Assembly: GCA_030704615.1 (NCBI GenBank)
Contig: CM060733.1
Location: forward strand, 3,348,001-3,412,000
Reading direction: 5' to 3'
Source of the DNA: Takakia lepidozioides
Taxonomy: Eukaryota > Plantae > Bryophyta
Length of the DNA: 64,000 nt
A program made the position numbers and the translations under genes. Below are positions 1 to 55,079 of this stretch, one piece after another. The notes below the pieces were generated by a model. It did not search any database. It worked only from the letters and a program-made list of their open reading frames with translations, and was not told where the DNA came from. Each line of letters starts with the position of its first letter. The first letter of the stretch is position 1.

Positions 1-103
1 ACGGCAATGAATGATGTGAACATGTTGGTTTCTCATTCTACATGTTCCACTTGTGGTTCCGTTCTTTTTTGATTGAAGACCTTGAATTTCATTCTGACTT
101 ACA

Positions 104-2957
104 GATATCATTCTGCAGAGGAACGGAGACATCGCATGTCAAAACGAGTTTGGTTCACACACTGTATAGGATACAAAGGATAGGGCAGATGCCCTTGACC
201 AACTTCAAGACCATCCTTTCAGCAGAGATGTACAAGAAGTGCGAAAGCTCCAAGACATCGGAAACGTGGTACTCGTTGACCCGTGAGGCTTTCATGGAGT
301 ACATGTACACGGTGAGATACATCTTCCTTCATCTGGTCTTCCATATTCCACATGTTTGTTTCTGTTTGTTTCCCTTGACCTTGTGCTGATGCAACTCTCT
401 TGCATTCCCTTGCAGCAAGACATTGCAGATGCAGGGGAGCGTGGCAAACTGGAATACTACAGCTCTACCCCTGAGGAGAGAAGGACAGCAAAGGGGGTTG
501 AGAGTCGCATCCAGAAAGAGATGACCTCTACAAGAAGGACTATAATGAGTGCTTTCGTGAAGCAGTTGAGAATTGCCGACCCATCATTCGGACCGCAGTT
601 TCTCCTGGAGATAAAAAAAACCATTATAACAAGCCAGGCAAGCCAGAAATGGCCCAGGAGAAGTTGCACAGGCTGTCTACCGCCGTTGTGTCTCCAGAAC
701 AAAAGGTGAAGTGGCTGCAGATATGGAACTCCGATCCCACAGTTAGGGATACCCACATGTTCCCAAGGCCGGAGAAAGAGAAGAAGACCCAGCGTGTCAT
801 TCCTGTCAGTGACAATGTGCTGGACACCTGGCTTCACAAGGCCACTTACTGGAGCCAGGTGTGATGTCCTTCCCTGTGTCACTGTCTTTTCTCTTTTCCT
901 GTCCTTATCTTTCTATTGCCTCTTACATTCGCTGTGATTGCTTTTGGTTTCATTCTTGCATTTGTATTGTTTTGCAGTTGGAAGAAAGGGCCAGATCGGT
1001 TCTGCATACTCAACTGGCTGATTATGGCATCAGTATGATAGCACCAAAGGTGTCCTTCGAAGCATACATGAGGAAATGGAGAGCCACAGTGTGGCACTCT
1101 TGTTTCTTTAGAGAGTTCAGCAAGGAGGGTGGCATCAGTCGAACAAATGAGCTGGACCAGCAAGAAAAAGGAGAGGAAGCCTGGAAACGATGCCTTTACA
1201 GGTGCACACTCTTGCACTACTTATTTGTGCTGTGGTTGCAATGTGTTGTGTGGCATACTGTTTAAGGGGGTCTTCCTGGTGTGATGGAAAAGTTGCCACA
1301 CAATATTTCCATTGTAAAATGAGGTTGTCTCTGTTGCTGCAGGTACATAAAGTTTGTTCTCCTGGAAGAGCTGGACAAACATCCAGATTTCGTGGACCTG
1401 TGGCTTGTCCCTGCTGGCAACCAGACCATGTTCACTACTGGGATCTTGCATGACTGGGGCCCAGACCATCTTTCTTCTTGTGGTTGGTATTTGGATTGCC
1501 CTCCTTCTGAGACCCCAGCTCCAGAGGTGTCTTTGAGGAGAGAGAATGACCGTATTGCAGCCACTGCCGCAGCAGCCGACCTCGACATTCATGAACGAAA
1601 TTTGAGGACTCTTGCAGAGAAGGAGCCTCCCGCTCACGATACCCCAGGTAGAGGAAGAAAGGCAAAGGGAAAAGATGTTGCTGGTGTTGTGGGGAAGGGA
1701 AGGGGTAGAGGGAAGGTGGCACAAGGGCAGGGAAGTGTTGCAGATATTGGCCCTGTGGAGCATGTCCAGCAGACTCCACCGCATGGTAGGGGATCCGGGA
1801 GAAAAAACAAGGGGGTGGTTGATCCCAAGGACCCGTACCATGCAGTGGAACATCCCACGAGGGTCATTCGCCCAACCAGGTTGGAGATGGCCAACGTCGG
1901 GTTCCTTGCCATGATGGAGTCGAAGAAATCTGATTACAAGGGCGAGCCATCACCAGTGTGGGACAGGATTGTGCAGTTCCTCAGCACGGTGCGTGTTCTC
2001 TTTGGGTTCTGTGGCTTCTGTTGTTTTTGTCTGCTGTGGGCATGGATCGTTTCTAAACTTGTTAGAATACCATTGTATTTTTGTTTGCAGGCTAAAATGA
2101 CCAAATCCTGGGTGAACGGGAAGGAGAAGCCATATGCAGCCGAACTCATCATCTTGGACATCCCTGATGGGTTGGCAGTCCCGGATATCCCTCCATCGGG
2201 TGCTTGTCCGGGTTGGAATGCTTTTGATGAGCGCTACTGGCGGTGGGTTTTCTCCTTTTGCAACTTCTTCCTGTCCGATGCTGGTGTTTTGGTGCTCATC
2301 CAGTCCATCGACGGTCGGTGTCGCCGTGCACTTTCCAGCTATTTGAAAGCCTCGGGCATGAGAGTCGTGAAGACATGGAATTGTGTGAACAGCATGTACC
2401 TTACGAAGGGGGATCGCCCGGGAGAGATGGTGAGTTTGCCTTCTTCTTCCTCTTCTTGGTTGTTCTCCGATGGGGTTGTATAGGTCGCTCGAACTCATAT
2501 GTAGGGGCCCGATTTTTTTTTGGTTCTTAGTTCCTTGTGGATGTCATGTTCGCAGACTCGTCTGTTTGAAGCTATTTGTCTCGTCCGGGTGCATCCACAA
2601 ACGACTCCGGCCGGCATTACCGAGTTTGCCATCACTCATGGGGCCAAGTTCATAGATGACAGGACAGATCCCCCCACGGATGACATGCATCACAACTACG
2701 TCGACAGCAACGTGTGCTTGCGAAGGGGGAATGAGGTTCCTTGGAGAGGGGCGAGGGAGAGGAGTCCGGCTTTCATTCAAACGATTGTGGAGTGCTGCAC
2801 CTACATAGACGCCAGAGTTCTGGCAGTCCTCCTCGGTCTTGCGTGCTACCTGTCTATGCGGAGGCACTCGCAGCAAGCATGTCCGTTCATGGCACTCCGA
2901 GTCCACCTTACGACGGCCTTCGTAGAACACGTGGTGTTGGGGCCAGAATCTTTGTAG
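104..2957 (+). pseudogene. Multi-exon transposon-associated gene (5' part outside window) ending in a beta-class amino-DNA-methyltransferase-like domain; probably frameshifted
   Basis: GT-AG bounded exons approx. 104-311, 415-859, 978-1201, 1343-1989, 2091-2429, 2556-~2957. Exon 2091-2429 has AELIILDIPDG (motif IV-like, cf. DLIITDPPYG) and FFLSDAGVLVLI (cf. RLLKPGGSLFI). Exon from 2556 has PWRGARERSPAFIQTIVECCTYIDARVLAVLLGL (cf. HPTQKPxxLxxxLIxxxTxxGDxVLDxFxGxG). The RGRGRG-rich linker is at ~1650-1810. Confidence 0.55.
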
Positions 2958-3370
2958 ATGACATAGCACAGGAGGTGGACACTGATTGTGATGACTGCGA
3001 CACTTGATATGAAGTTTTCTTTTGGTTTAATTCTGGGCCAAATTTGAAATGGGATGGTTGTGTGTCCTTGTTGTCCTGTTTGCAATGTGTGCCTGGAATT
3101 CACATTCATGGTTACAAACTATTGTTGGAGATGGGGGTTGCATGGACTGCCTGGATTGTTCCTTCAATCTATTTGATGTTTTGTGGACCTCACAGACTGG
3201 AGTACATTGCGAAAACAAACAAACCACTTTGGTTCGTGTAGAGCATTCTCGCATCATTTGCTAGTTGGTCCCCAAACTATTCCTGCTAGAAGAATGGTTG
3301 GTGAATCCATCACGGTGAAGTCCACCTCATCAAAAACTGTTCAGGCATTCTCAATTCTACCCACATCAAC

Positions 3371-3520
3371 CCGCGGAAATAGGTGACACCACTCGGAAAT
3401 AGGTGACATCCGCGGAAATAGGCACTGTTTGCATGCTGACGTGGCGTGAGCCTGTGCTGGGCCCACGCTTTCCTGGGCTCACAGGCTCACGCCTCCGGGC
3501 TCACGGAATAGCACCCCCCC
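3371..3520. mobile_element. Probable right terminus (TIR/subterminal region) of a DNA transposon, Mutator-like
   Basis: Three CGGAAATAGG(TGACA) direct repeats, a perfect 13-bp inverted repeat GCGTGAGCCTGTG...CACAGGCTCACGC, and an end ...GGAATAGCACCCCCCC after which the sequence appears to become LTR-retrotransposon leader. Confidence 0.5.
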
Positions 3521-3618
3521 ACCAGGATCATCATCTTTTGGGCCGTTCCGCTTTCGCTTTGGCTTGCCCGACCCCATGATGAGGCCAATCCCAAGGACGA
3601 TCACGTACTGAACTCTAA

Positions 3619-3630
3619 GCTCTGATACCA
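3619..3630 (-). promoter_or_regulatory. Primer-binding site, tRNA-iMet (TGGTATCAGAGC)
   Basis: GCTCTGATACCA on + strand, 2 nt from the LTR end at 3633. Confidence 0.9.
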
Positions 3631-3632
3631 AG

Positions 3633-4361
3633 TGTCGCGCATCTCACTTTGGTAAGCTCCCCTTCAGGTCATAGTTGCTAGCTTGATTGCGCGCGCCTAA
3701 CTCCCAACCTGGCCGCCAGACCAACTTGGAGCTTCGGCTGCTCACCGGGGCATAACGGTCCCCCTTTGAACTCCCAAAGAATCCTCCACCGATTTGGAAC
3801 CAGCGGGAATTCCCTTTGGTAGTTGGCAGTCCGGAACAGCTCCCCACTCTTTGGTCGCTTTCCGGCTCGCTCGCTTACTCACTAGTTTTTGGTCACCAAC
3901 GGGCTTGCACCGTTCTCGGGGTTACTACTCCCTATATATACTTCTGTAGCTGTCCGCGGGGGTTTCACAACCAGCCATGCCATTTTATGGCGAACCACCA
4001 CGAAAACCCTCGACTCCCGGTGATGAGTCGCGGTGAGTCTTGGCCCACTCACCACGGTCCCTATGGACCGTGATGAGTCCCAAGACTCCCCACGACTCCC
4101 ACCACGAGGTCTCCGCCCCCATGGTGAGTCCTATGCCACCCCCACTAAGTCCCGCTAAGCTACCACCACCCCTTGTGGAGCCACCCCCACTGCAACCCGG
4201 TGTGCGGGGCTCCACCTAGTGAGCGCCTCCGCCTCCTTGAGTGCCTTGGGCACTCAAGGGTGCTTCAGCCCCCCCATACCTATCGCTGCCGCTGCCCCCA
4301 CCACAGGGGCAGCCCCTCATGTGTCCCGACCCCCCTGCCCTCAAGGCAAAGGGCCGCGACA
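3633..4361 (-). mobile_element. 5' LTR (729 bp) of a chromovirus-type Ty3/gypsy element
   Basis: TGTCGCG...CGCGACA termini, adjacent PBS, and a closely similar inverted copy at 61047-61776 that follows a chromodomain integrase. Confidence 0.9.
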
Positions 4362-4999
4362 GCTACAATGTCCCCCGGTTTTCAGAATCGGACTACAGAA
4401 TTCCAGCTCTTGTCGGATTCCGACTTGTCTTTAGACGGGAGAAATATCGCGAAGTGTGGACAGAGTTGCACAAACACTACCGGTTAGGGATTTGGAGCTC
4501 TATGATGTACAAGAACTTGCAGCCCATCCTGGATTTTTTGCTTCGTGGTCTACCTCAACCGGCCTTCGTTATGTCTCAAAAGGATTGTATTTCATGCTCT
4601 ACTTTGGTTCACCCTCAATTCAAATCAGGATTGGACCCTCCTCATTTGTTTTTGAAGCCACTGGTCAAGGTCTGGCAGAGATTTGGTGGGAAATACACCA
4701 AGAGTAACACTCTGCTCATTGACGACACCGCCATGAAGTGTATATTGAACCCGCCCGACTCATGTCTTGTTCTCAAACCATTCCAGACCGTTGAGACTGA
4801 TGGTTGTTATCTTCTCAAGGTTCTTCAGACCTATTTGCTTGGAATGAGGAAACATCCCACTGTTTCAAGCTATCTTAGGAAAAAAAGGATAGGGTTGAGT
4901 TTTTTTCCCAATGTTTCAAACGATCCCAAGTTTAGCCCACTCTGGGATTTTATTGAGGACAATGGTTTTAAGAGTCTCAGATATGATGCTTCAAAATAA
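4362..4999 (+). pseudogene. FCP1/NIF (HAD-like CTD phosphatase) domain ORF, N-terminus cut off by the LTR insertion
   Basis: LGIWSSM, FVMSQKDC, FLKPLVKVW and YTKSNTLLIDDTAMKCILNP match NIF/FCP1-family motifs. The first ~40 codons of ORF 4241-4999 are LTR sequence, and the DxDx(T/V) motif is absent. Confidence 0.7.
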
Positions 5000-14299: not shown

Positions 14300-17060
14300 C
14301 CTTGAAGGCGAGGGATCTTCATGTAGATGAGAAGGAGTCTGAGAGAGTTTGACTAAACTCTGGTAGATCGTACTGCCTCGACCCGGGCGGAATTGTGTGG
14401 GACTGGGTTGTACCCCAAGTTCTTGAAGTTGGAATCTCGCTTTGCTCTACAAAAACTGCTTTTACAGTCCGTATCGAGGCTGTTCCTGAGAAGGGCATGG
14501 AAGTAGGATGGTGCAAGGTCAGTTTGCAAGGTACTCGGGAGGGTTGGGACTGTACGTGGCTGCCGAGCTGCCGATTTTTTTTTAAAATCCTTCACAATGA
14601 CAACCGCAATTTCAAGGTGTGGCTTTCTGACTGCTCGATGGAATCCTGCAAGTGAGCTCTTTGGGTGGATCTACGGTGGTTTGGAGTGATTTTGACGTGT
14701 TACTGCCGATGTGGCAAGAGGAAAAATCCAAAAACAGATAACAAGGACTAGGAGAAGCTGTGGATCGAATATTTTTCAGACCCCAGTCAATGGTGGTGAA
14801 TGCCTGTTCAATTACAGAGAGAAGCAGACAACATATGCAAATGTCATTGTCAGCTGCTAATAGTAAGGCGAGTATCTATGTACATACATGACTGGTGTAG
14901 AGGAAAGGATATATAGCTGAAGGAGCAGGGATAGAGTGTGGGTCCAGATTCACCAAAAGGACCAGATTTCAAGCACAAAATTACCTATGATTCCCTGTGT
15001 ATGGATAGGTAAAAGAAACGATGATGAATCAATTGGAAACAGCAGCAGCTGCAGCACAATTGATAAAATCAGGGCCAATGAGGACACCTTCTTCAACACA
15101 TTTCAGCCTGTTTTGCTCTCTTATCAGTGTAGTCCCTAATTTTTTAAGTTGGATTACTTTTGACATGTTACTGCCAATGTGGCAACAGGGAAGTATTCAA
15201 AAACAGACAACGGGACCAAGGAGAAGCTTTTGAAGGAATATTTTATCAGACCCAGTCAATGGTTGGACAATGAAGGCAGAAAGGTGGATGCCTGCTTAAT
15301 TACTGCGAGCAGCAGACAACAAAATAGATTGGCAAGCTTTGTTGCAAACCGTCATACTCTCTCTCCCCAACACATTTGGGTATGTCGTGGGAGAAATTCA
15401 GCAAAGGAACTAGTGTATGGTAAGTAGGTTTGGAGTGTTTGCACTCTGTATTTTAGGCTGTCATTCACAGCTGCTAGTATTATTGTTTCCAATGCAGAGA
15501 TAGTTGAAGTAGCAGGGATGGAGTGTGGGTCCAGACTCCAGACGTCCAGACTCATCTGATATAGCCACATAATTTCAAGATATAATTCCCTGTGGATTGA
15601 TAGCTACAAAACATGCATGGTTAGGTGGTCCACTGGAAGTAGCAGCAGTACCATAGTTAATAAATCAGGACCTCCTGCATGACCACAGCTTACGAAAGAC
15701 GACCAAGGGAGTGGGTCCACAAAAAGTCTTTTGGCACTTCTGGGCATGTGAGGATGCTAGTGAGGCTTGCAAGGCTCTACAGATTTTGAAGGAAGGAGGG
15801 AGTTCAGCAGTACTTATGTCTCTCTCTTGCAATGCATGTGCAAGCTTGGCATACCTGGAAAAGGGAAAAGAGCTCCATGGTGACATCGTCAAAGCTGGAG
15901 TCGTTCCACATGTCATTTTGAACTGTGTCCTGATGAAATTGTATGCCAAACATGGGAGCCTTGAGGATGCAAAGGGGTGTTTGAGATATTGCTGAACGAG
16001 ATGGGGTGTCATGGGACTCTATGATTGCAGGATATGCCTGACATGGGTGGAAAGCTGAATGGATTCTAAAGTTTTGGCATGGTTGGAGCTCGAGTCATCG
16101 TCCCACATGACAGATGCGTACAGTCAGGTAGGTTTAACAATATTGCTGAGCATGGTCCTTTTCACTTCAGTTTTAATCCCTTTGTAGTGGAATAAATTTG
16201 TGAGACCTAAACCTTTGAATTTTGCTGTTTGTAGCACTTTTTGTAAATGCGCATCCCAGTTACATATGGAAGAAATCTCAACACCAATATATGTGTAGGA
16301 AGCGGGCAGGAAGGGAGCACATGGATCACCGCCCCATCTGAGATCCCCTCCTCCCTCCTAATGATCATCAAAGGCCACTACCACATTTAATAGCATTGGC
16401 TTCTAGCCTTCATAGGTTAAAAGTACCTCTTTGCATGTGGCGGTTTGGGCTTTCCAGATTTCCTCTAGAAAGGCTGCCCACCACAAGCATCAATGTGTGA
16501 GCTGCCCAGCACCTAGGCACCAACAGGGCTGGGGCTTGATAGGCTCAGCCTGAAGATTTTGAAAAGTTGGAGGTGCAGGGACTATGTTCCTGATGGTCCT
16601 CTGATGAGAATACCCCGGACATGGTATCAGAAAATGGAGATTGTTTCACACTGTCAACATGTATGTCAAATATGGGAGCATTGTGGATGCACAATTGATG
16701 CCTGAACTAGTGTTGATAATGTGGAATATGACGATGGCAGGATTTACTAAGCATGGGTTTTCAGACATGAGCAAATGATGTGGGAAGGGGTGAAGCCCAA
16801 CCACATAACGTTTGTTTGTGTTTGCAATGCGTGTGCGAGCCAGGGCAACGAGGTCTATGGCGAATCATCAAAGCGGGAAGTGTACCAGATGTCATTCTGA
16901 ACACTACCCTGGTGGACATGCATGCCAAATGTGGGTGAATGAAGGAAGCAAAGGGAGTGTTCAACAATATGGCCAAACGAACTGTGATTGCAGGATATTC
17001 ATGGGTGTGGGATCAAGGCTTTGGGATATCGACGAGCAAATGTACCAGGTATTGGAAGAG
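14300..17060 (+). pseudogene. Decayed PLS-class PPR gene with OSB-type PDF motifs
   Basis: EKLWIEYFSDPSQWW* (~14752), PKGPDFKHKITYDSL (~14952) and EKLLKEYFIRPSQWLDN (~15221), followed by PPR fragments CNACASLAYLEKGKELHGDIVKAG...LYAKHGSLEDA (15810-15990) and 16650-17040. Many stops and frameshifts. Confidence 0.7.
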
Positions 17061-27020: not shown

Positions 27021-28871
27021 TCAGACAAACTTCAACAACATTCCTTCTATGGTTATTCCAGGTCCAAAACCAAGAGCAATTGTCCAGGGGTTCATTGGAG
27101 CGCTGGAAGCTTTTTTGTCATTCCAAAGCTTGTGGAGCACAAAAATGAGTGTAGATGAACTCATGTTTCCATACTGGTCCAGAATAGCCCTGCCAAAACC
27201 ACCACAAGTACAGAAATAGTACAGATACGTGTAACCCATGTACTGAAAGTGATGTTCAAAACTGTCTAGCTGCACATATGACAATCACATTGATATCATT
27301 GATAGTATTATGCAAATGCACTCTATCAACTGCTACAGTATGGCATCTGAACTGACTTTTGTTTTTTTGAAGTGACATGCCAAATGTTATATGCAAGTAC
27401 ATTGGAGATCATAGATTCTACCGACCACTATCTGGCTAAAGAAAGTGAAGTGGTAGAAGAAACCTGGATACTTCGAGCTGGTTAGGTGCCAGCTGACAAC
27501 CTTTTTGAACTCTGTCAAGAATAGTTTTCCCACCCGGATGCACAGCCCAGTTAAGACAATGGAAGTTTAGGTCAGTCTCCTTCAACATTGTAGCCACAAA
27601 CTCCTTGGAATGGGTGGCAACGATCTCTGGAAGAGTCTTACTCAAGGAGGCTATGAGCCCTGACTGGGTAATCTGTGCGCTGATGCAGTGATCCGTATTA
27701 GGAATGTATGATGTATTAGACTTGTGGATTTCGTAGATAGGAGTCTCAGTTATGATGGGTTGTGCTCCAATCACAACGGCTGCTGCTCCATCTCCAAATA
27801 TCGCTGCACAAACTATGTTGTTCATCCCACAAGTAGCAGGATCCACCGCTTGACCCTGACAAGAGTTAACCTCCACACAAACAACCAGGACTCGATTGAT
27901 AGGGTCTCCACTGGAAATCTCTGCTGCAGTACGCATAGCCACAAGGCCTGCATGACAACCCAGAAAGGAAAAGCCGAAGTGCTTGATAGTGTGGGCAAGG
28001 CCAAAGCCTTTTATGAGCCGCATATCCATGCCTGGGAAAATCATTCCAGTAGTGGAATATGTGATCAGGTGGGTGATCTTTGATTTGTCCCCTCCCCAAT
28101 CATCGATGGCTCTGGCGACAGCAAGGGCTGCGATCTCCATGGCTGCTCCCTCGAACAATGCGAAACGGTCATTCAGCGAGGGTGCTCCATGCGTGAGCAT
28201 GTTGGGGTTAGCACTGTAGATCTTGGGCGTAATTGCTAGATGTCTTTTTGTAATCCCAGTGCTCTTGGCTGTAAGAAAATCACAAGAAAATGGTCACATT
28301 TGATTGCGTTATAAATAAGTTGAATTCTACATAATAATTGCAAATTTCTATGGGACGTAATAACATAGCAGGATTCTCGATGAAGTATTTGAGAAAATAT
28401 TTCAAGAGCTTAAATAGTCTATAGATTTTCGGGTTGTAAACCAAAAACCAAAACCTCAGGTCCAATATCTCTGGGAAATACCCAACCGTCCCTGACAGGT
28501 CCATATATGGTATTAAGAACTCTCCATGTCCTTTCTTTCATTTCTAGGATTACTTAATTAACTAGACTATTTTTTTCTTTAGCTATTCGAGGCAGATAAT
28601 TTCATTTTGATATGGAAATAGTTCTTATTGCAGTACAGGTCTTTATGGGTTTAATATACTCACAAACTCGCCTACAAAACTCCTGGACTGCAGGGTTGGT
28701 GTAGTTGAATCCCTCAATCAGCTCGTCCGCAAATCCGTCCGTCTTTGTAATGGAATCCGGATTAGCTATCCCAATGCCCAAGATATTTGGCAGCACAGAT
28801 GGTGGACTTCTCTTTGTCGCTGCCATGAAACCATTTGCATAAGATAGCCCATCGGATGCTGCTCCAGTCAT
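27021..28871 (-). CDS. Type III polyketide synthase, ORS (alkylresorcinol synthase)-like; 3 exons: 28871-28664, 28268-27464, 27189-27021
   Basis: Catalytic triad in FLGCHAG, AVHPGG and YGNMSS, plus IFGDGAAA and GFGPG. The first intron is at the conserved CHS-family position. Q occupies the CHS Thr197 position and A the Phe265 position. Confidence 0.92.
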
Positions 28872-31734
28872 TATGAATTAGACTCCTGCAACTTCAGAGT
28901 GCCCATTTAGTATGGTCGACCGCTGCCATGTTAGTTGTCGCTAATGGTAAAAGATTGCATTGGATACTTCAACAAATCAAGCCTCAAAGTAAAACACCTT
29001 GACCCTAATTAGACTAGCAGGAGGATCACACTCTTAAGAGAATAATGATAATAATAAGAACATGAAAGCTTAAGTATATATATGTAGTCGATTGGCTCTG
29101 CAGAGGCTGGATTGTGGCATCCACCTTTGCAGTGCCTGGAAAAAATGAGGATGAAATTCTTACATAGTAATATGAAAAATGTGTCCCTACGATCCTACAG
29201 GTGGTCGCTGACTTTTGCTAAGAAGTGCTAAGACTGCACAGGAGGTTCAAATACAGAGAAAGAAGAGAGTTCACTGACAAAGTGAACTCATTGCTATGAA
29301 AGATTGATCACTCTGCTAATCAATAGCTAGAGAGACACCTCATTTCACTCACACTCGTGACTTGTATTTGAGCCAAATCATGGCCTGAAACGTATTCACG
29401 ATTCCCAACAATATGATCAAAGCTCACATAGATGCAAAAACAATTAGCTACTGTTAGTTTCCACACACCAACGTTGCAGCTACGTTAGTCAATCCAAGTG
29501 GAGCAAGGCTATTTTGATGATACCAATGAATTATATGTTTGAGCATGGACCTCTAGCATATATATTCGCATGAAATGGTTGTGAACCCTTATAGTGGCTA
29601 ACTAGGGGGACATTGTATCTGCACACATCATAAGGCAAATTGAAGCGGACGTTGATGACTAACCTGGAAATGCCACCACATAAAGATGCGAGAATATGTG
29701 GACGAAGGAGCACTTGGATGCAGTCCTACAAATTATGGTGGGCAAGCTGTTGGAGATAAGCTCAGTGTGCAAGAATGATCGAAATCTCGTAAGTATCACC
29801 ACCTACGTTAGCGATCGCAACGACTGGGTAGGCTAGGCTAAATGTGACAGACTACTGCGATCTAAATCTGTACACAAAGTTCATTAACCAAGGTGGATGC
29901 CAGCCAGCACTAGCGAACGCACCAACACGATCTATCAATCTAGCGAGTACCAAGCTCTTGGCGGCCAATATCCGCGCACCTCCAACAACACTTCACACCA
30001 CCAAGCCACCAAGCAATAGAGATGGATCTGATCGGACACTGCCCCCGAGCCAAGGAGAGCACTGAACACTCGCTCATGCACTCACTCTTATATACAGACT
30101 AGATCATAGCGGGGCAGAGAAAAGCAGAAGCAAGAGGCAGGCTCGAGGCCGGACGACCTCGGGAGGACTTTGTTGACCCCTAATTACAACCACTCTCGGG
30201 GAGAACTTTGGGGATCCGTAATTAGCGGCACTCTCGGGAGACACAGTGAGCAGCGACAATATAATTAATCCTTGAAATATTGTAGAGTTCACATTTAATA
30301 CTGCAGTTCTTATCTCCACATTGGGCCATCCTCAAAAAACTAAATGATTTTGTCGCCTTATCTCCACAAATGATGTGACTACATGCATCCACCGCCCATT
30401 CATCCGACAACCAGTTTTCGCTGCCCTTCGCGTCAGCCTATCCTGCCGCTCGACAGCTCCATGGATAGGAAATAATAATATGAAAGTTTTCCGCTCCCAG
30501 GTTTTTTAGGGCTTCCGTCCCCTTTCTTTAATATTAAAGAATCAAATACATATTTTTCTTCAATAAATAGACCCCTGTTGTTCCTTGCCCCTGCATAACA
30601 GAGATGATCCGGGGTTCAATCCCTCTAGATGTTCTTCAAGGGGCTACACGTTGAGCAGTAGGCTCCGTTTCCCTAAAACATACTTTGACTTTAACCCTCT
30701 TTACGAGGTTATTTTTCCTGGGTTCTTTTACTGGTGATTCGATTTCTACGGTCCCTGTTTTAAAATTTAAGAAAAAATAAAACACTCAAATTTATTTTTG
30801 GTGAATTTCCTCGTTTTGGAACTCGCAGGCTCCAGCTAAGCGCGTCCTTCCATGTGGTCAAACCTGACCAAAAGATGATGTCATCACTGGCCTATGGAAT
30901 GTGTGCTTTGGAAGGAGACGGGCAAGGCAACCTTACGTCTTGGGAAATCGGGTGGCTACATGGACGGACCCGTAGCAAAGCCACTGGTCGGGCCCTTGGT
31001 CAAATCCTTTCCCACGATGACGTCATTAGACTGGGTCGGGTCTACATGGAAACAGGCTCTAACAAGTGAGCCTGGATTACTCACATTAATGTGTATAGAT
31101 ATATTGTTTTTAAAGGAAAGTATAGATATAAATGTAGATAATTTCTTTTTCTGTCTCCAGAAGAGAGAACACTGAAAAAAAAGAAAAAAGAAAAAAGAAA
31201 ACACTGAAAGAGCACGAAGAAATTAACCATGGCTACTTGAAGTCCTCACAAATCAGGTCCTCTTTCATGGACCAAAGTATGTCGATGGCAAGATGTGACT
31301 AGAAACTTGAAAGCCATCAGCAAATTGCTGTAGGTAGACCTCCCTGTTTTGCCAATCCGTAGGTAAATAATATTAAATATTATGGAATTAAGTTGTTGTA
31401 TAATCATAATGTTAATAGGTAGTACATTTGGAGTGAGATAAAAATAAAAAAAATAAAAAATAACAATTTTGTCATAAAAGTCACATTGAACACATCATTG
31501 GGCACCTATGGTAGTCAATATGTACTAGAGAACGCGCCCCCTAGGGCTCATTATAGCTCCTAGTGAGTCACTAGGGCGAGGCGCCTCAGAATTTTGTGTG
31601 GCCTCGTCGTTATGAGGCCACACGCTGCAGAGGGGACAGCCCCTCCTGTCACGGGCCCCGCACGCTTGGGGCCTTGACCTGCAGCCCCTCCTCATTCCTG
31701 CCCGCCCCTAACCTCCTGCCCAAGACCCTCCTGG

Positions 31735-31873
31735 CCTAACCCCCAACTAACCTAACCTAACCCCAATCTGACCTGACCCTCAACCCTAACCTGACCCAAC
31801 CGACCTGACCCAAGCCCAACCTAACCTACCCCTCACCCTAACCCGACCTTAATCTAACCCCTCAACCCAACCC
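31735..31873. repeat. Degenerate C-rich CCTAA/CCTGA/CCCAA pentamer tract
   Basis: About 25 imperfect pentamers seen directly. Confidence 0.7.
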
Positions 31874-32524
31874 ATAGTCCACTTTTGAACCAGGGCTAGT
31901 TATCGTCTCTCTCTCTCCATCAACGTAGGCCTTGTCGACCAGCTTTGCTATCGAACTTCAATAGCTTTCTCTTTCATGCATCATCATCATCAGCTTCTAT
32001 TAGTTCACATGAGGAAAGGAGGAGGAAAGGAGAAGGTGGAAGAGGAGGTGCAAAGAAGAATCACAAATACAAGGTTTTTCTTTTGTATTGATAATTACTT
32101 GTAGATAGTGTGTTGACAACTTCTTGTAGATAGTCATTTTCATTCAATTTTAGGTTGGATCTTTGTTTCTCTTTCTCACTTCTCGCTCTCGCTCTCACTC
32201 TTATTCATTTTCATAGTACAACCTAGATAGACATTTCATTTCAAGTTTAGATTAATTTAAATTCTCTTTTGTCTCTTTTTCTATGGTTTTTCTTTTTATC
32301 TCCCTCTCTCTCGCTCTCCATCTCTTTCTTTCTCTCTCTCACTCTTTCACACAATAGCATTAGGAGGATTTTATAGATTTGTTACTAATCTATCTTCCAT
32401 AATATGACTTCTTCTCAATTTTTAGAATAAACACGGCAATAGAAGGCATGGACTACGAGCCTCTGAGCTCCAGTAGGCTCTAAATATCTTTCATTGCATT
32501 GAGGATGTAGTTGCGGAATCTTAC

Positions 32525-34974
32525 ATGGCAGAACGATTTGAAGTACAAAATCCTACTTCTAAAGTGTTTAGGTTTGGGGATTTGAAATGGATTCCACAAA
32601 CACGGTGGGGAGGTGGAAAGAAGGTGAACTGTATTATTGCGTATATTCCATGGGACCGCGTGAAGGATTTTATTGAAGGAGAGAAACAACACCCACATGC
32701 CCCTACAAATTTCACACTTTACAAGAGTCGGAAAGGAGATCCAAATCTGTCAGTTCCCAATGACGACAGTTTCATTACCCACAAATGGTATGCTACTTAA
32801 GCTTATGTACTTTGAGTGTTTTTTTCTATGATGCATTGTTTGTACCTTATCTTTTATCTAGTACCATAATGGAAATTAGTTGAATAAGAAGTGGATGATC
32901 AAACTATAGGTACCAATGTGTGTGGGGCACACGACATTACCATCAACAGCCATTGCCACCCAAAATTCCAAATCGCAAGAAACGAAGAGACAAAAGTGCG
33001 CTTGGCGAAACATCTAATCGCGGTTGTCTCTACAAATTCTCAGTCAAACAATTATTCTTGTATCCATCAATTGCGGAGGTGGCATTTTATCGTTGGGACC
33101 ATACAGACGCGGAAGGCAATCCTAGCCATGGGATTTTGGATCATCGGTCAGTTAACACTCGGAATACAAACGAGCTACCAAAAACAGAAAATGTTGGAGT
33201 GGGGACATGAAGGATTGGTATCGTGCGATGCCACATTTGGCACAAATAACCAAAAGTTCAAATTGTTCACTCTGTTGGTATTTGATAAACAGTTCAATGG
33301 TGTGCCTGTAGCATGGATAGTCACAAGCAGAGGACAAGCCAATGATCTTGTACAGTGGATGACAGCACTTCAGGCTTATATAAAAGATTATGATCCACAT
33401 TGGTTACCTTCATTTTTCATTGTTGATGATGCAGATGCAGAGATCAATGCTATAAGGTATATTCAATTCTCTTATTTGCGCTTACAATTTGTTTTCAACA
33501 TGTTTATCGTGCATGTTCGCATGTTGCGGTTTGTACTTAGAGTGAAATGATGAATATTAATTTTGTTAAGATTTTTTGGTGATTGCAGGAAAGTGTGGGG
33601 GCCATCTATGCCCATTTTTCTCTGTTTGTGGCATGTTCAGAAGGCATGGAGAAAGAATGCTTGCAGTAAGGTGGGAGATATTGTTGTCCGCAGTGCACTA
33701 TTGGAGGGTCTTCGTCACATTATGTATATGTCATCCTTGCCAAACGAAAGTCCCAGAGACATCAAGATCAAAGCAATTAACAGTGTGAATGCATTATTCA
33801 TGAAGTACCCTACCGAAAGGGTTTTTGAGCAATATTTCCGTAGGGAATGGCTTTCCAAAACGAAAATGTGGGTGACAAGTATTCGAAAAGTTCCACATGC
33901 TGGTCAAGAAACCAATGCAGCCATTGAGGCTTACCATGGTAATTTAAAGTCTCGACTATCTGAGTCGAAAAAAACTATGAAGGGCAGGAGAGTGGATTGG
34001 CTTATATATGGATTGGTGGGCGATGTTGCAAGACATTATTCATACATGGACCACATGAAGACCAACGGGTTTGTGACTAATTCCAAAGCAGAATTGTTGA
34101 TTGAAAGTTCTGTTGTGAGAGCAAGCAATATACTTGACTCCGATGTTGTGTATCCATCAAGGGATGGAGAGCCCTTTCAGGTACGAAGCACTCAACATCC
34201 TTTCACAAAATTCCATCAAAGTATATAATCCCATAGGTGAATGGGCATGTTGCACATGTGATTGGGCATTGCGGGACAACTTGTGTAAACATCAAATTAA
34301 GGTTATACAACTGATCAAAAACATCCCTGGTACTCAATTTGTGCGAATTTGTGGTGCCGAGTTGGGAGCTACTGGGAGCGATCTTCATGCCTTATTTGAA
34401 GACACCAACAACTCACACCACACAGAACTCATGTTGGAATTCCTTATTTATGTACATCTTATATTTTTGTAAGGTATAAAAACCTATATATATCTATATC
34501 TATATCTATATATATCTATATCTATAATGAAACAACTATAAGCAAAGTGTATTTCTTATAATATATCCATGTGGGTTAATATAATGTTATTTTCATTTGT
34601 TATGGCATACAGACGAAGCTTCCCCAATTGACAACCTACCTTCCTGTCAAAACATTTGTGATATTGTGAAGTCTGATATGCGATCTATTGCCAAAACAAT
34701 GGAAGACATCATTCATACTATGGAAGGGGCTAGTCCACAATTGGTTGGTCATACTCTGGCTATGGTGAAAGCAGTGTATGGTGAAGTGCGATCGCTGAAG
34801 AGTTTAGCAGAAGAAGACATGATGCATCCTTCTCAAGCCTTTCGGAAAATCGACGATAATGGTGACAACCCCATTCGCCGAAAGAAAGATTTTTTGGAAC
34901 GTAGTAAAGGTTGGAAGCGCACGAAAACATCCGGAAATGACACTATGCATGTTAGTCTAGCCCATAGTTCATGA
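32525..34974 (+). pseudogene. Mutator-like (MULE) DDE transposase with SWIM zinc finger, spliced, frameshifted
   Basis: CDATFGTN, GVPVAW, FIVDDADAE, LCLWHVQKAW, TNAAIEAYHGNLK and SWIM CTCDWALRDNLCKH. The N-terminus EVQNP...GDLKW...IPWDRVKDFIEGE resembles plant SWIM/MULE genes of the At1g60560 type. Frame changes occur at ~33150 and ~34215. Confidence 0.85.
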
Positions 34975-35149
34975 AAACATTGAGCAACGAAGAATGTCTA
35001 TATGGATTTCTTGCTATATTATAAAATGTGAAGCCCCGGGGTCGCTTCTTGTTGATGCCAATAAACAAACACTAAATTATACTTCGGTCAAGCTTCAAAA
35101 CCCATAAACTTCATGGAAAATGGTTGAAAACTTGACAATATCTTGAATC

Positions 35150-36600
35150 TCATACTACCTACGTGAAGGTAATTCTTCAAAGATAGTTTGGCATTAACCA
35201 ATAGTGAGTGTTGTTGGAAATAGGGCACTACCCACATGCAAGTAGTCCCAAAGTTTCAGGAAAATTGGGGGGTGCCAAACTACCTACGTGTGGGTAGCCC
35301 AGAAAAGACCTCTCTAAGTTGTTGGAAATAAGGCACTACCCACGTGCAAGTAGTCCCAAAGTCTCTGGAATATTTATCTATGCCTGACTACCTTCGTGCA
35401 GGTAATTCGGAAAAGACCCTTTCTAAGTTGGAAATAAGGTCGGTACCTACGTGTAGGTAGTCCGAAAGCCTCTGGTACATTTAGGTGTGCCCAAGTACCT
35501 ACGTGCAAGTAGTCGAGAAAAGACCTCTCAAAGTTCTTGAAAATAAAGTCAGTACCTACCTAGTAGTCGGAAATGACCACCCTAATAACTCGCCAGTCCC
35601 TACCCACTACCTGCACGTGAGTAGTGACATTTCCAACAACTTACGGAAGGCCATTCTCAGACTAGGTCGATTTTCAAAGGATTTTAAAGTAAACGTAGTT
35701 CCAACATTGTTAAATGCATTGCAAGTTTGGGACTACCTGCACGTGGGTAGTACCTTTATTTGCAACTTATGGGAAGAGTACATTTTTCGGACTACCTGCA
35801 CGTAGGTAGTTTGGTGTACTAAAATTTTCCAGCAAGTTGGTGCACGTGGGTAGTGCCTTTATTTGCAACTTATGGGAAGAGTACTTTTTTCGGACTACCT
35901 GCACGTAGGTAGTTTGGTGTACTAAAATTTTCCAGCAAGTTGGTGCACGTGGGTAGTGCCTTTATTTGCAACTTATGGAAAGAGTAATTTTCTCCGACTA
36001 CCTGCACGTAGGTAGTTTGGTGTACTAAAATTTTCCAGCAAGTTGGGGACTACATGCACATGGGTAGTGCGTTTATTTCCAACTTAGGAGAGGGTCTTTT
36101 TTCGGACTACCTGCACGTAGGTAGTTTGATGTACTAAAATTTTCCAGCAAGTTCGGGACTACCTGCACGGGGGTAGTTCCTTTATTTCCAACTTAGGATA
36201 CTTTTTAAGGACTACTTGCACGTAGGTAGTTTGGGATAGTCAAGTTTTCCAGCAAGTTAGGGACTACCTGCACGTGGGTAGTGCCTTTATTTCCAACTTG
36301 GGAGATGGGACTTTTTCTGGACTACCAACACGTAGTAGTTTGGGTAGTCAAGTTTTCCAGCAAGTTCGGGACTACCGGCACGTAGGTAGTGCCTTTATTT
36401 CCATCTTAGAGAGTCTTTTTCCGGACTACCTACATGTAGGTAGTTTGTTGTAGATAAATTTTCCAGCAAGTTTGGGACTACCTGCACGTGGGTAGTGCCT
36501 TTATTTCCAACTAAGAGAGGTCTTTTTCGGACTACTTACATGTAGGTAGTTTGGTATAGATCATTCAGGGCCTACTCACACTAGCTAGTTTGGTATAGCT
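35150..36600. repeat. Two oppositely oriented arrays of ~105-110 bp units, each with two near-palindromic ACTACC-TGCACGT(A/G)-GGTAGT motifs
   Basis: CGGACTAC unit starts recur at ~35788, 35891, 35995, 36103, 36209, 36319, 36422 and 36528. The reverse-complement form (GTTGGAAATAAGGCACTACCCACGTGCAAGTAGTCCCAAA) occurs at 35150-35630. Confidence 0.9.
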
Positions 36601-37064
36601 CAATAATCTTAAGACATTGTAATGACTAGGTAGTGATATAATTTCCAATGACTTGAGTCTTGAGGAAGGTAGTTTCATAAAAGAAATGATAAAATGGGTA
36701 ATGGACCGAATGTGATATCCTTCATGACGACCATGTAGGTACTCTTGTGAAGCCCCATAAACTAGAAGACAGAGTGTGCATTAATGCGTGGGCTATGATG
36801 CATGTAGGTAGTATTGAGTGAATGTCCAACTATCTTTCTTAATGGGTCAATACACAAGAAAAAATTGAAATGTCTTGGAATTTTTATACATGTAACGTGT
36901 CGGTACAACTGTCTTGAGTGATCTTGCTTGCACATTTATCCCCTAGTTCTCCCAATAAGAAGGCGAGCCCCTATGCCATCACCCATGCTCGCAAAATATT
37001 GAGATTCTGAAGTAAATCCCATCGATTCGAGTTGTTCACGAGTGGGTGTTACTCTCGTATGAGG

Positions 37065-38520
37065 TCATGTACTTAGTGAGGTGACACGAGCATGGGCACG
37101 ACCACGTCCACGACCTCGACCTCGACCTCGACTAGTAGAAGCAATATGATCTTCCACTATTTGGGCTACACTATCCTCATGGGCGGTTTCATGTTCCTCG
37201 GGATTAACTGAGAATGTCCACAGGAGAATTCTCATAGATGGAAGGAGTTGGAATAACCTCACTTTCGTCCACGTTCTTCTCCAACTGTGAGACGGAGTCA
37301 ACTGTAGAAACCTGGACATCGACCATCATTTCTTGGCTTTGTGAGGTTGAACCGTGCTCATGAATAGGAGACGATGCAGGACTTTCCTCATTATAGACAA
37401 CAAGACCCGTTGAAGTGGATGGGAGATTGCCCGTATATTCATCTCGTGCCTCTGCAAGAACACTATCAATTGTGAGGACACGACCATCACTTGTCTTCTC
37501 TGGACTCCTCTCCGGACAAATAAATAGATCCACATCTTCACCATCCGGACCACATCCACCATGGACATACGTTGCATGTGGACAAGTCAATGAATGCAAA
37601 CCTTCATCATTCGGATCGTCATCTCCACCATCGTGCACCTCATTGTCCGAAATCTCTTCACTTGAGTCAAATACAGGCAATCCATGTTTGAGCATGTATG
37701 TCATTGTTGCCACATTACTTTGTTCCACGCGCATGTTCTCCTTCAGTTTCCAAGTCGCCATGGCTTTCGACACATAAGAAGCCATGAAGTCGTCCTTGCT
37801 TTTCTCCCATCTACAAAAACATGTGTACATTTGTGACTTTGAAGCAAACAAAGAAACATATACATACAAACAAGACGCCGAACATATACATCAAATGAAT
37901 CAAACAAAAACATATTTGTAACTCTCCAACGTACACTTTGTTGATCATGATACTCCAAAGTCGAATCCAGTTGCTGAATGCGAGACTCCAACCCACTATC
38001 CCACCTACTTTTTGTCCATGTTTTCCTCATGTCTGCCTATTCAGCTTTGGAGTAGTTGTTGGTTTTCAATTTCTTGAAAAGACCCAACACATACTCTCGG
38101 GTGTTGTGGTCATTTAATTTACGGAGATCTCGCAACTCTTCATCTCCCCAACAGTTGATACCTGTAGCAGCATACATGTCCACGTCCAAAACCTCCGCAA
38201 GTAACGGTTTGGGGATCCACTCAGGCATAGGGGCCAAACCCGTGGTCTCTTTGTCATACAGCTTCTCTGCCGCAATTTGTATCTACGTCGTGCCTTACTT
38301 TGGGCATTGGCCAACCGTTTGTGAGATTAGAGAAAGTGTGCATGTTGTTGCGCTTGCTCTTTTCCTCATCATATGGTCTATTCATTCAAATCTGCGCCTT
38401 CAGATTTGCCAGTTGCCATTACCAACCCATGACCTCCCTCATCATATGCATACTAAGCCCCGCTTTCCTACTATACCCCACTTTTGGGCCTTTCTGGCAT
38501 AATAGACACTTGTAAAATCC
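37065..38520 (-). pseudogene. Unknown spliced gene convergent with the MULE transposase (accessory, mudrB-like position)
   Basis: Overlapping ORFs 38037-38237, 37743-38030, 37204-37869 and 37065-37319 with a probable intron at ~37811-37930, an acidic region and an RGRGRGRGR tail. No recognisable domain. Confidence 0.45.
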
Positions 38521-38947: not shown

Positions 38948-39447
38948 NNNNNNNNNNNNNNNNNNNNNNNNNNNNNNNNNNNNNNNNNNNNNNNNNNNNN
39001 NNNNNNNNNNNNNNNNNNNNNNNNNNNNNNNNNNNNNNNNNNNNNNNNNNNNNNNNNNNNNNNNNNNNNNNNNNNNNNNNNNNNNNNNNNNNNNNNNNNN
39101 NNNNNNNNNNNNNNNNNNNNNNNNNNNNNNNNNNNNNNNNNNNNNNNNNNNNNNNNNNNNNNNNNNNNNNNNNNNNNNNNNNNNNNNNNNNNNNNNNNNN
39201 NNNNNNNNNNNNNNNNNNNNNNNNNNNNNNNNNNNNNNNNNNNNNNNNNNNNNNNNNNNNNNNNNNNNNNNNNNNNNNNNNNNNNNNNNNNNNNNNNNNN
39301 NNNNNNNNNNNNNNNNNNNNNNNNNNNNNNNNNNNNNNNNNNNNNNNNNNNNNNNNNNNNNNNNNNNNNNNNNNNNNNNNNNNNNNNNNNNNNNNNNNNN
39401 NNNNNNNNNNNNNNNNNNNNNNNNNNNNNNNNNNNNNNNNNNNNNNN
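38948..39447. other. Assembly gap (exactly 500 N)
   Basis: Round-number N run, typical of a scaffolding join of unknown true size. Confidence 0.99.
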
Positions 39448-40932
39448 CCACCAGGGTGGACCGCCACGCCACGGAATGCAAGTCCAAATTGGTACCTTTC
39501 AGAAGCTCGCGTGACAATGCCGTGTCACCTCAACCACGCTTGGGGGACAACTTTAATCTCTATTCGCCAGTAGGCCAGTCTGGGTGATGAAAGCTGTGAT
39601 GTTCTTGCCAGAATCGGGAACCACAAAAGACTTGCACCGGTGGATCTCGAATAAAGGTCTCTCAGTTTGGGTTGGTTTGCCTACCACTACAGCAGAAGCG
39701 CCATCACCAAAGATGGCTGCTGTCACGAAATTGTTTATGAGGGTGTATTCTGGATCGATGTTCTGGATTGGGACGGAGGGGACTTCGACGCAGAGTACGA
39801 GAACACGGTTGGCAGGATTGGCCTGGGCAATCTCAAAGGCTGAACGCAGGCCAACCATTCCGGCATGGCACCCAAAGAAGACGGCCGATTGGTGTTTGGC
39901 GGTATTTGGAAGATTTAGCGCTTTAACCAACTGGATGTCAAGAGCTGGTAGGGTCATGCCAGTGGTTGAGAACGTCATGATATGGGTGATGTCGGCTCTG
40001 TCCCTCCCAACCGCTAGAGCGCGTGTTGCGGCAAGCTCAGAAATCTTCAGTGCCGCAGGCGCAAACAAGGACAATCGGTCATCCAAGGAAGGTGTACCAA
40101 AGTTGTAGAGGCTCGGGTAGCTTTTAGCCTGTTGGGGAGATAACGCTGAGTACTTTTTTGATATGCCAGGAAGCTTTGCTGCATGATCAAGCATACGTCC
40201 ACGGATGTTACGCACCAGCTGTCTAGCGACTGTTGTAGCACTAATTATAATTATGTTGACCTCAAAATTGCAACAGGGTGTGTAGGTTCACTTCAGCGAC
40301 ATGAGAAGTATCCAACTATCAATATTCAAAGATCCAAATTACAAAGGAACTTTCCCGCACTATATTATTTCCAGATCATTTTCAGCTCCGTTCTAAGTGC
40401 TGTAGCATGGGGAGCAGTTCAAGCAGTTCAAACTGGCCTGTAAACCCGATCGTCAATCATCTAAGATTCCAAATATAAGCTGAACTCACGACCTCTAGAT
40501 TATCCATCAAGAAATTACAAGGCAAGGTGGAGGTCCTGGGCACAGGACTGGTTAGGGAAGTCGTGGAATTTGAACTTAACCAATGCGGTCCAAGAAGTAC
40601 CTTCCTTCTGGGGGCACCTGAAATTCTTTATCTTCGAACATCCGAGCAAAGTCTTTCATCTCAAAGGACCAGTCGGGATTGGCTGAACCAATTCCCAGAA
40701 CGCATGGCACGCCTGTTGCGGCCACCGGTTCCGAAACGGGTGAGGAAACATGGGGCGCGTGACCATTGCTGCTGTTCTTCAGATTGAGCGATGGAGTATC
40801 ACTAGCGGCTGGAATTTTTGATGGGCCACTTAGTGCTAGAGTCCCATTTGCGGCGGTCAAGCAACTCGTTGCCAGCAGGCCTTTGGTCGACCCATTTGCT
40901 GAGGACGTTTCCAGAAAATCGGTGATTGCCAT
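39448..40932 (-). CDS. Second type III polyketide synthase (ORS-like), 3' end lost in gap; exons 40932-40581 and 40178-<39448
   Basis: VLGIGSANP, FFGCHAG and IFGDGASA motifs, with the same first intron as the PKS at 27021. ELLKGTNLDLHSVAW and VHPG are recoverable through indels just before the gap. It has a ~75-aa Ser/Ala-rich N-terminal extension. Confidence 0.85.
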
Positions 40933-54563: not shown

Positions 54564-55079
54564 GTGGGTTCTCGCTCTTTTCACAGCTCCTCTCATCTCC
54601 CTGCCCCATTCCAATGGGAGTATCGTAAGGCGGAGAGAAGCAATGTTTCTGGCTGCTTTATCTCACACTCATACTTAAACAAATGGATTTTGTGGCTAGA
54701 TGAGTCAAATTTCAAACTTAAAGCAAAGCAAGTAGTACTATCAAACATCATGTAGCCTGGCAATAAGCTGGCCGTGAGGCATCTGTGGCTTGAACACTAT
54801 CTTACAAGCAAAGTATGCTCCAAATATATTGCCTATCATTTACTAGACCATGACTGGTAAAAATCCGGGGAGTTCTATTGCAAGTGTTGTGGGAAGTCAT
54901 AAGCTTGGACTTGAAACAGGGAAGTCATGCTGCACAAGCACGCACTTATGAAGAGTTTGTGCTATGTTGTGAGGTTAGGTGGCCTCCTGTCGTTTTATCG
55001 TTTTGGTCACTTACTTTCACTCCAAAGGGACTTTGACAGATGCAACTGGGTCTTTACATCTTTACATCAACACTTCCTC

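What the first reader, a model, noticed from the sequence alone, without database searches (positions are those of the whole stretch)
2091..2957. Transposon-borne, intron-containing gene with a bacterial-type beta-class amino-DNA-methyltransferase-like domain
Seen: spliced exons encode AELIILDIPDG...FFLSDAGVLVLI...GMRVVKTW...TRLFEAICLVR...PWRGARERSPAFIQTIVECCTYIDARVLAVLLGL. A single added base after LGL would continue GVLPVYAEALAASMSVHG. Established: this order (catalytic motif IV first, motifs X-I last) is the beta permutation of N4-cytosine/N6-adenine MTases. Eukaryotic examples are rare (bdelloid N4CMT, Marchantia DN4MT1). Inference: a plant DNA transposon carries a domesticated amino-MTase fold fused to a long N-terminal region with an RGRGRG tract. 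It could mark or protect the element or counter silencing. Motif IV reads DIPD rather than DPPY/SPPY, so it may be a catalytically altered binder.
Basis: partly seen in the sequence, partly recalled or inferred. Interest (0 to 1): 0.78.

Follow-up and report, generated by a model that had tools for sequence, protein, structure and literature searches.

The report
Transposon gene with disarmed methylase fold
A broken copy of a high-copy plant repeat, likely a DNA transposon, carries an intron-containing gene predicted to fold like bacterial DNA amino-methyltransferases, but its whole family lacks the aromatic residue that holds the target base (mostly an acidic one instead), so the protein likely binds DNA for the element rather than methylating it.

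Summary
The gene is real and lies at the right end (3520) of a high-copy element inserted into an LTR retrotransposon. A homologue's predicted structure matches beta-class N6A/N4C DNA methyltransferases (Z 19.8, M.BceJIV). Two corrections. (1) The break after LGL is not a one-base frameshift: it is an internal deletion at 2823/2824 (likely ~0.4 kb) that removed the end of motif I and motif II, which other copies retain. (2) DIPD is not decay of this copy: 0 of 54 family members have the motif-IV aromatic and 48 have D/E there, while SAM-binding residues are kept and synonymous changes are in excess. Distant relatives share the terminal signature and carry their own tandem repeats. Best reading: a likely non-methylating, SAM- and DNA-binding transposon accessory protein. 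Transposase, left end, N-terminal domain and activity are untested. Algal transposons with amino-methyltransferase accessory genes are published; I found no land-plant, family-wide DxP(D/E) version in print. The scan noted similar, possibly the same, plant genes on other DNA (e1-7364677, e1-7226250).

The parts
1..311 (+). Predicted 5' exons (1-27 and 105-311, GT..AG intron 28-104); the gene starts upstream of the window
   Evidence: Read from the sequence; no Pfam/PHROG hit; no homologue found for 105-311
416..1530 (+). Conserved, predicted helical middle region (exons 416-858, 978-1201, start of 1343-1988); frameshift in the A-run 613-620 in this copy
   Evidence: tblastn of P0046/P0022 to the window, E 2e-10 and 8e-21; 31 of 93 phmmer hits match this part; 2 bases left out at 613 in 11 X1 contigs holding over half the summed depth; helical, low-confidence model
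1531..1988 (+). Low-complexity basic linker with the RGRG tract
   Evidence: Poorly conserved in alignment A2; pLDDT under 50 in both homologue models
2091..2429 (+). Methyltransferase-like exon 1: motif IV equivalent D-I-P-D at 2157-2168, then the motif V-VII strands
   Evidence: 62 of 93 phmmer hits match this exon; motif census; X6 and X7 contigs identical to the window across motif IV (records 9 and 17)
2556..2823 (+). Methyltransferase-like exon 2: family motif PWRGxRE (2739-) and motif X to the start of motif I, cut by a deletion at 2823/2824
   Evidence: Alignment A2; loose ends at 2823-2825
2824..3007 (+). Remnant of the last exon (C-terminal LPxYA tail, stop 3005-3007), out of frame with exon 2 in this copy
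   Evidence: tblastn to L001-L004 and L006; LPxYA lies 538-546 nt after WRG in 4 loci but 104 nt after it in the window
3367..3425 (+). Three 20-nt subterminal direct repeats (core CGGAAATAGG)
3443..3520 (+). Right terminus of the element: GCTCAC repeats (3477, 3485, 3499), 14-nt inverted pair, terminal TAGCAC(C/T)CCCCC at 3509-3520; likely a terminal inverted repeat, only one end seen
   Evidence: Same signature ends L004 and, cut short, L003; depth step and loose ends at 3520 in 3 of 4 runs
3521..4361 (-). Host element: 5' LTR (about 3633-4361), primer-binding site (3619-3630) and first ~100 nt of the internal region of an LTR retrotransposon, interrupted by the insertion at 3520
   Evidence: Inverted match to the LTR at 61047-61777, which follows an integrase/chromodomain-like ORF; the PBS label (initiator tRNA-Met) and the domain labels are recalled

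Best explanation
This is a deleted, frameshifted copy of a gene at the right end of a high-copy plant repeat, likely a cut-and-paste DNA transposon, whose product is predicted to have a beta-class amino-methyltransferase fold and likely works as a non-methylating, SAM- and DNA-binding accessory protein of the element. Shown: gene anatomy, repeat status, right boundary, deletion, family-wide D-x-P-(D/E) in place of (D/N/S)-P-P-(Y/F), kept motif I Asp/Gly and motif II acid, excess of synonymous change. Inferred: the fold was taken from a prokaryotic or viral beta-class methylase; loss of the stacking aromatic stops amino-methylation; the protein, probably a dimer like other beta-class enzymes, binds the element's own subterminal tandem repeats, which differ between relatives, and so would help transposition or shield the element from host silencing, much as VANC does for VANDAL and as proposed for algal ParB-methylase genes.
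For: Fold: profile of 10 sequences hits CcrM (E 4e-5) and M1.HpyAVI (E 7e-4); model of P0054 (pLDDT mostly 80-94 over the domain) matches M1.HpyAVI, Foldseek E 9e-12, and M.BceJIV, Z 19.8, rmsd 2.9 over 222 residues, with the top 11 rows all beta-class DNA methyltransferases; a second model agrees. Motif IV: 0 of 54 rows have Y/F/W at position 4, 48 of 54 have D/E, 44 keep D at position 1. The Tyr stacks on the target base in N4CMT (PMC10406627, passages) and Y107G inactivates HP0593 (PMC3036652, passages). SAM site: motif I D and G in 9 of 9 homologues of A2, motif II acid in 3 of 3 that reach it and in 5 of 6 loci. Selection: 14 of 24 exonic differences listed and 18 of 29 listed for the X11 contig are synonymous, against 22-27% expected, p at most 0.0014 and 1e-4. 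Element: 38,040 X1 contigs laid, with a depth step and loose ends at 3520; terminal signature shared with 2 of 6 distant loci; different tandem repeats downstream of the gene in the window and in L002, L003, L005, L006, weak in L004.
Against: No transposase, left end or target-site duplication was seen. No activity, binding or expression data. The fold was modelled on homologues (28-33% identical to the window exons), not on the window's protein. Motif IV keeps D and P in most members and the SAM site is conserved, which also fits a working enzyme with unusual chemistry; unusual strand-4 motifs exist in permuted clades (PMC4738411, passages). 10 of 54 rows have an aromatic at position 2 of the motif. 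The family was gathered with the window's own sequence as query, so members with a canonical motif may have been missed. Binding to the subterminal repeats is an analogy only. The terminal signature is absent from 4 of 6 loci, which are short (1.2-2.0 kb) and may stop before the end.
Confidence: 0.55

Rival explanations
1. Intact copies encode an active methyltransferase with a non-canonical D-x-P-(D/E) active site that marks the element's DNA (6mA or 4mC) or an RNA.
For: SAM-binding motifs kept; D and P of motif IV kept in 44 and 47 of 54 rows; purifying selection; algal transposons carry predicted N4/N6 methylases.
Against: The base-stacking aromatic is absent in 54 of 54 rows; its loss inactivates HP0593 and impairs M.TaqI; no protein reaches Pfam's N6_N4_Mtase cut-off (best 20.8 of 26.7 bits; 2 of 26 proteins with any hit).
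Confidence: 0.2
2. The protein is an inactive partner subunit (like METTL14 or MTA9) that dimerises with an active methylase, the transposase or a host chromatin factor rather than binding the repeats itself.
For: Beta-class enzymes work as dimers that divide labour (PMC10406627); inactive partners exist in this fold (PMC4738411; METTL14 and MTA9 chains at Z about 11).
Against: No partner gene seen; the SAM site is kept, which a pure scaffold need not keep.
Confidence: 0.15
3. The gene is passive cargo: a captured host gene in a non-autonomous element, or an antisense gene of the neighbouring LTR retrotransposon, with no role in transposition.
For: No transposase seen; the gene lies just inside the PBS of an LTR element on the opposite strand; this copy is dead.
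Against: Contigs that carry the LTR element's leader leave the window at 3520 for one shared other sequence (49 X1, 18 X2, 5 X5 contigs), so those copies lack the insert; relatives at 33-43% protein identity keep the same gene-to-terminus layout, which fits long co-inheritance rather than a recent capture.
Confidence: 0.1

Closest known systems
Sola1-1_Ec32 accessory gene of Ectocarpus (PMC12477816; passages, supplementary table rows)
   Same: Spliced accessory gene in a DNA transposon with a predicted N4C/N6A methyltransferase domain at the C-terminus of a long protein; proposed to bind and modify its own element.
   Different: Brown alga; ParB-like N-terminus (not testable here); AACCG-CGGTT termini with a 282-bp TIR, unlike the G-run end here; loss of the catalytic motif is not reported in the passages seen.
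Plavaka PAG2 of Bostrychia (bioRxiv 10.1101/2025.02.11.637652; passages, supplements not seen)
   Same: N6-adenine methylase-like accessory gene in giant DNA transposons; tandem repeat arrays beside an accessory gene.
   Different: PAG2 is detected by PF01555 and fused to a SET domain; red alga; EnSpm/Plavaka.
Beta-class DNA amino-methyltransferases: M.BceJIV, CcrM, M1.MboII, M.PvuII, M1.HpyAVI, bdelloid N4CMT; Marchantia DN4MT1
   Same: Fold and motif order (IV before X-I-II); acidic SAM-binding residues.
   Different: They have DPPY/SPPY (DN4MT1: TSPPY) and are active; 12-19% identity in structural alignments; N4CMT and DN4MT1 are host genes, not transposon cargo. DN4MT1 was not compared by sequence.
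Methyltransferase domains of DIRS1 and DAM-LTR retrotransposons (PMC4738411 passages; bioRxiv 10.64898/2026.05.21.726589 abstract and Results part 1 of 3)
   Same: Amino-methyltransferase domain kept by a transposon; called likely inactive in the 2016 review.
   Different: Retroelements; PCIF1/Dam-type rather than beta-class; the 2026 preprint has a section titled as saying that the catalytic pocket is preserved (heading seen only).
VANC proteins of Arabidopsis VANDAL transposons (PMC5735166; abstract)
   Same: Accessory protein whose targets form tandem repeats that differ between related elements; the working model used here.
   Different: No sequence or fold relation tested; VANC binding and anti-silencing are shown, here they are only inferred.

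Membership tests
Beta-class N6A/N4C DNA methyltransferase | Rossmann-type fold of the beta class | tested here: met
   On homologue models: Z 19.8 to M.BceJIV, top 11 rows beta-class; Foldseek E 9e-12
Beta-class N6A/N4C DNA methyltransferase | Motif IV N-terminal to motifs X-I-II | tested here: met
   Profile alignment to CcrM places D-I-P-E on DPPY and the C-terminal block on motifs X-I-II
Beta-class N6A/N4C DNA methyltransferase | Catalytic motif (D/N/S)-P-P-(Y/F) | tested here: not met
   0 of 54 rows with an aromatic at position 4, none with P at position 2
Beta-class N6A/N4C DNA methyltransferase | SAM-binding motif I and acidic motif II | tested here: met
   Family: D and G in 9 of 9, acid in 3 of 3; other copies of this element read D-L-S-M-G-T-G, without the F of FxGxG. 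Deleted in the window copy
Beta-class N6A/N4C DNA methyltransferase | Methyl transfer to DNA | not testable with these tools
   Needs biochemistry
TIR DNA transposon (any superfamily) | Dispersed high copy number with a defined end | tested here: met
   Depth step and loose ends at 3520; terminus shared with L003 and L004
TIR DNA transposon (any superfamily) | Paired TIRs, target-site duplication, linked transposase | not testable with these tools
   Left end lies outside the window; one match only to the end motif in 64 kb; loci are 1.2-2.6 kb
PIF/Harbinger | G-rich termini flanked by a TWA/TNA duplication | tested here: inconclusive
   End is G-rich, but the flank reads ACC (window) and AAA (L004), not TWA (rule rows); two flanks only, exact end uncertain by a base
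KDZ or Mutator-like | G-run termini, tandem subterminal repeats, 8-bp or longer duplication, own transposase | tested here: inconclusive
   Ectocarpus KDZ rows list GGGGT/GGGGA termini, tandem repeats and two spliced genes, which fits; duplication and transposase not seen. Mutator end features are recalled
ParB + N4/N6 methylase accessory proteins (Sola1-1_Ec32 type) | N-terminal ParB-like domain | tested here: inconclusive
   No ParB hit for the exons in the window; the part of P0046 before the methylase domain is modelled as helical at low confidence; the true N-terminus lies upstream of the window

The most novel reading that the evidence does not exclude
A widespread, unnamed land-plant DNA-transposon family has rebuilt a bacterial amino-methylase into a new anti-silencing tool: it keeps SAM binding and base flipping, and the conserved acid that replaced the stacking Tyr lets it read, shield or chemically alter cytosines (5mC included) in the element's own fast-evolving repeat arrays. 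That would be a new class of sequence-specific epigenetic effector, with one specificity per transposon family.
Probability: 0.15. Interest if true: 0.85.

Novelty: new variant of a known kind. Interest (0 to 1): 0.52.

Why it matters
Evidence for transposon anti-silencing proteins in plants is limited to a few cases such as VANC (PMC12973397, passages). A large, selected, Pfam-invisible family of methylase-fold proteins riding high-copy elements in land plants gives a testable candidate for another, and shows that prokaryotic amino-methylase folds entered plant transposons and were kept after the canonical active site was lost. It also warns against reading such genes as evidence of 4mC/6mA writers in plants. 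This particular copy is a pseudogene.

Tried and rejected
One-base frameshift after LGL: rejected. Pfam on 8 window segments: no methyltransferase hit; PHROGs: hits for 2 of 6 homologues, none for window exons; phmmer of exon 2556-2840 against PDB: nothing; profile A1, which covers mainly the motif IV exon, gave no methylase in PDB. ESM Atlas: exon 2091-2429 gave unnamed clusters at 0.90-0.91 and methyltransferase-clan leads at 0.85-0.89; exon 2556-2840 gave nothing. Word-indexed protein searches: none at 677-2000 aa, 2 of 7996 candidates, both from Logan assemblies and unnamed, none for exon 105-311; weak evidence of absence. No relative in viral contigs (0 of 5 pattern matches) or prokaryote genomes (0 of 389); phage records gave only E 0.3 matches to motif I-II; viral Foldseek hits are 9-17% identical and name no donor. 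The end motif in viral contigs gave 2 chance matches inside a phage gene. No RNA holder listed; X10 and X11 are only guessed to be RNA and showed no splice joints: no evidence either way on expression. The middle domain could not be assigned a fold (not folded alone). Summed contig depth (about 0.5-1.8e5 over 1-3480 in X1, against 46-160 for single listed pieces) is not a copy number; I claim only 'high copy'. Source organisms of the homologues are unknown. The Mutator-like transposase at 33-34 kb belongs to another element (no matching end motif). Literature searches that found no description of this family; the supplement of PMC4738411 holds neither 'PWRG' nor 'REKD' (gapped alignments could hide them). 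bioRxiv supplements (Bostrychia Table 6, DAM preprint) were not seen and might list relatives.

Full report
Observation. The window holds, on the + strand from base 1 to 3007, a gene with GT..AG introns at 28-104, 312-415, 859-977, 1202-1342, 1989-2090 and 2430-2555, read from the sequence. No exon hits a methyltransferase family in Pfam. The host is a land plant, likely a moss according to unchecked notes on the same genome; I did not test this.

Family. phmmer with 1344-2429 against 1.84 billion representatives gave 93 proteins at E up to 1e-3, 5 of them at 1e-10 or better: 62 match the motif IV exon and 31 the preceding exon. I aligned 53 of the 62 (9 short partial hits left out) with two window exons (A1), and the 9 that cover both halves of the domain with one window exon (A2). 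A2 found 6 intron-containing loci among 502 pattern matches in metagenome contigs, and none in viral contigs or prokaryote genomes. The two homologues with a listed source come from Logan assemblies and carry no name or Pfam domain.

Fold. The A2 profile hits CcrM (E 4e-5) and M1.HpyAVI (E 7e-4) and places the family's D-I-P-E on CcrM's DPPY, with motifs X-I-II at the C-terminus. An AlphaFold model of homologue P0054 is confident over residues about 265-555 and matches beta-class DNA amino-methyltransferases by Foldseek (E 9e-12) and VIA-align (Z 19.8, rmsd 2.9, 222 residues to M.BceJIV; Z 18.4 to bdelloid N4CMT; MT-A70-type proteins follow at Z 10-13; unrelated folds at 6 or less). A second homologue agrees. 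The window's own protein was not folded.

Active site. At the fourth place of motif IV none of 54 rows has an aromatic residue; 27 have E and 21 D. Position 1 is D in 44 and position 3 is P in 47. Contigs from two other studies are identical to the window across this motif. In N4CMT the Tyr is modelled to stack on the target base (PMC10406627, passages), and replacing it inactivates HP0593 (PMC3036652, passages). The SAM side is kept: D-x-x-A-x-(T/V/I)-G in 9 of 9 homologues and an acidic motif II in 3 of 3 that reach it and in 5 of 6 loci.

State of this copy. In all 4 runs, contigs leave the window at 2823 and continue into an intact motif I (D-L-S-M-G-T-G), and contigs of 3 runs enter at 2823-2825 from other sequence with loose ends up to 235 nt. 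The frame after the junction (LPVYAEALA) matches the family's last exon in 5 of 6 loci, where it lies about 540 nt after the WRG motif (4 loci measured) rather than 104 nt. So roughly 0.4 kb, with the end of motif I and motif II, is deleted here, and the proposed one-base repair is wrong. A second lesion, in the A-run at 613-620, is absent from contigs holding over half the X1 depth. Among the best-supported differences, 14 of 24 exonic ones (40 of 462 rows shown) and 18 of 29 for the diverged X11 contig (29 of its 40 differences shown) are synonymous, against 22-27% expected: the family's reading frame has been under purifying selection. Each difference was scored alone in its codon.

Element. 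Bases 1-3520 are a high-copy repeat held in runs of 4 studies. Depth rises several-fold at 3520, where 49 X1, 18 X2 and 5 X5 contigs turn off into one shared other sequence: the element is inserted about 100 nt inside the primer-binding site of an LTR retrotransposon on the minus strand, whose LTR recurs at 61047-61777. The end, GCTCAC repeats followed by TAGCAC(C/T)CCCCC, recurs at the end of L004 with a different flank and, cut short, in L003, although these proteins are only about a third identical to the query. Between gene and end, each relative has its own tandem repeats: 3 x 20 nt here, 3 x 139 nt with a 26-nt palindrome in L003, 40-nt and 23-nt units in L006, 54-nt in L002, 284-nt-spaced units in L005. 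The left end, duplication and transposase are outside the data. G-run termini with tandem repeats fit KDZ elements as tabulated for Ectocarpus or Mutator (recalled); the two flanks are not the TWA of Harbinger; the termini differ from those of Sola1-1_Ec32. The rows shown do not include this element's end joined to other flanks, so dispersal of the end rests on the depth step and on L004.

Mechanism. Best reading (0.55): a non-methylating accessory protein that binds SAM and the element's own repeats and so aids transposition or protects from silencing. Anatomy, motif census and selection are shown; loss of activity follows from known beta-class chemistry; repeat binding is inferred by analogy with VANC (PMC5735166, abstract) and the algal proposals. 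Rivals: an active enzyme with a non-canonical site (0.2), an inactive partner subunit (0.15), passive cargo (0.1).

Known and new. Transposon-borne N4/N6 methylase genes are described in brown and red algae (PMC12477816 passages and table rows; bioRxiv 10.1101/2025.02.11.637652 passages), and likely inactive methylase domains in DIRS1 elements (PMC4738411 passages). Marchantia DN4MT1 (bioRxiv 10.1101/2021.02.12.428880 passages) and N4CMT (PMC8885841 passages) are active host enzymes. Nine searches found no description of a land-plant family with a fixed D-x-P-(D/E) motif; the library lacks most subscription papers, including the journal version of the Marchantia work, and bioRxiv supplements were closed. 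Other agents of this scan reported plant transposons with ParB-methylase genes, and two broken genes that may be this family; I could not compare sequences (searches found no look-alikes). It is not a member of the active beta-class family (motif IV not met) but is built like one. Verdict: a real, unnamed variant of a known kind; this copy is dead; interest 0.52.

Noticed in passing
window 31500-38500: A separate Mutator-like element: MULE transposase on + (32888-34228; Pfam MULE E 3.7e-8), a convergent unknown gene on - (37204-37890), and between them an array of 103-109-nt repeats with a near-palindromic ACTACCTGCACGT(A/G)GGTAGT core in two opposite orientations (35224-36558). The layout recalls VANDAL.
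   Followed up: partly
window 4241-4999: A 252-aa frame that begins inside the LTR and runs out of it; its 3' part is an NLI-interacting-factor-like phosphatase (Pfam E 1e-7) and is itself multi-copy.
   Followed up: no
window 3632-4361 and 61047-61777: Two 90-100% identical LTRs of one very abundant family in opposite orientation, 57 kb apart; the second follows an integrase/chromodomain-like ORF at 58517-60142.
   Followed up: partly
window 55075-58704 and 15806-17016: Degenerate tandem PPR-like repeats of about 300 nt, with frameshifts (the PPR label is recalled).
   Followed up: no
window 27436-28293 and 39553-40287: Two chalcone-synthase-like (type III polyketide synthase) frames on the minus strand (label recalled); assembly gap near 38949-39450.
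   Followed up: no
L003:2080-2384: A 26-nt perfect palindrome centred on GGATCC, repeated every 138-139 nt between the gene and the terminus: a candidate binding site for that family's protein.
   Followed up: partly
window 2373-2412 (run contigs): Loose ends in X1, X5 and X6 show a diverged subfamily of the same gene in the same organism.
   Followed up: no
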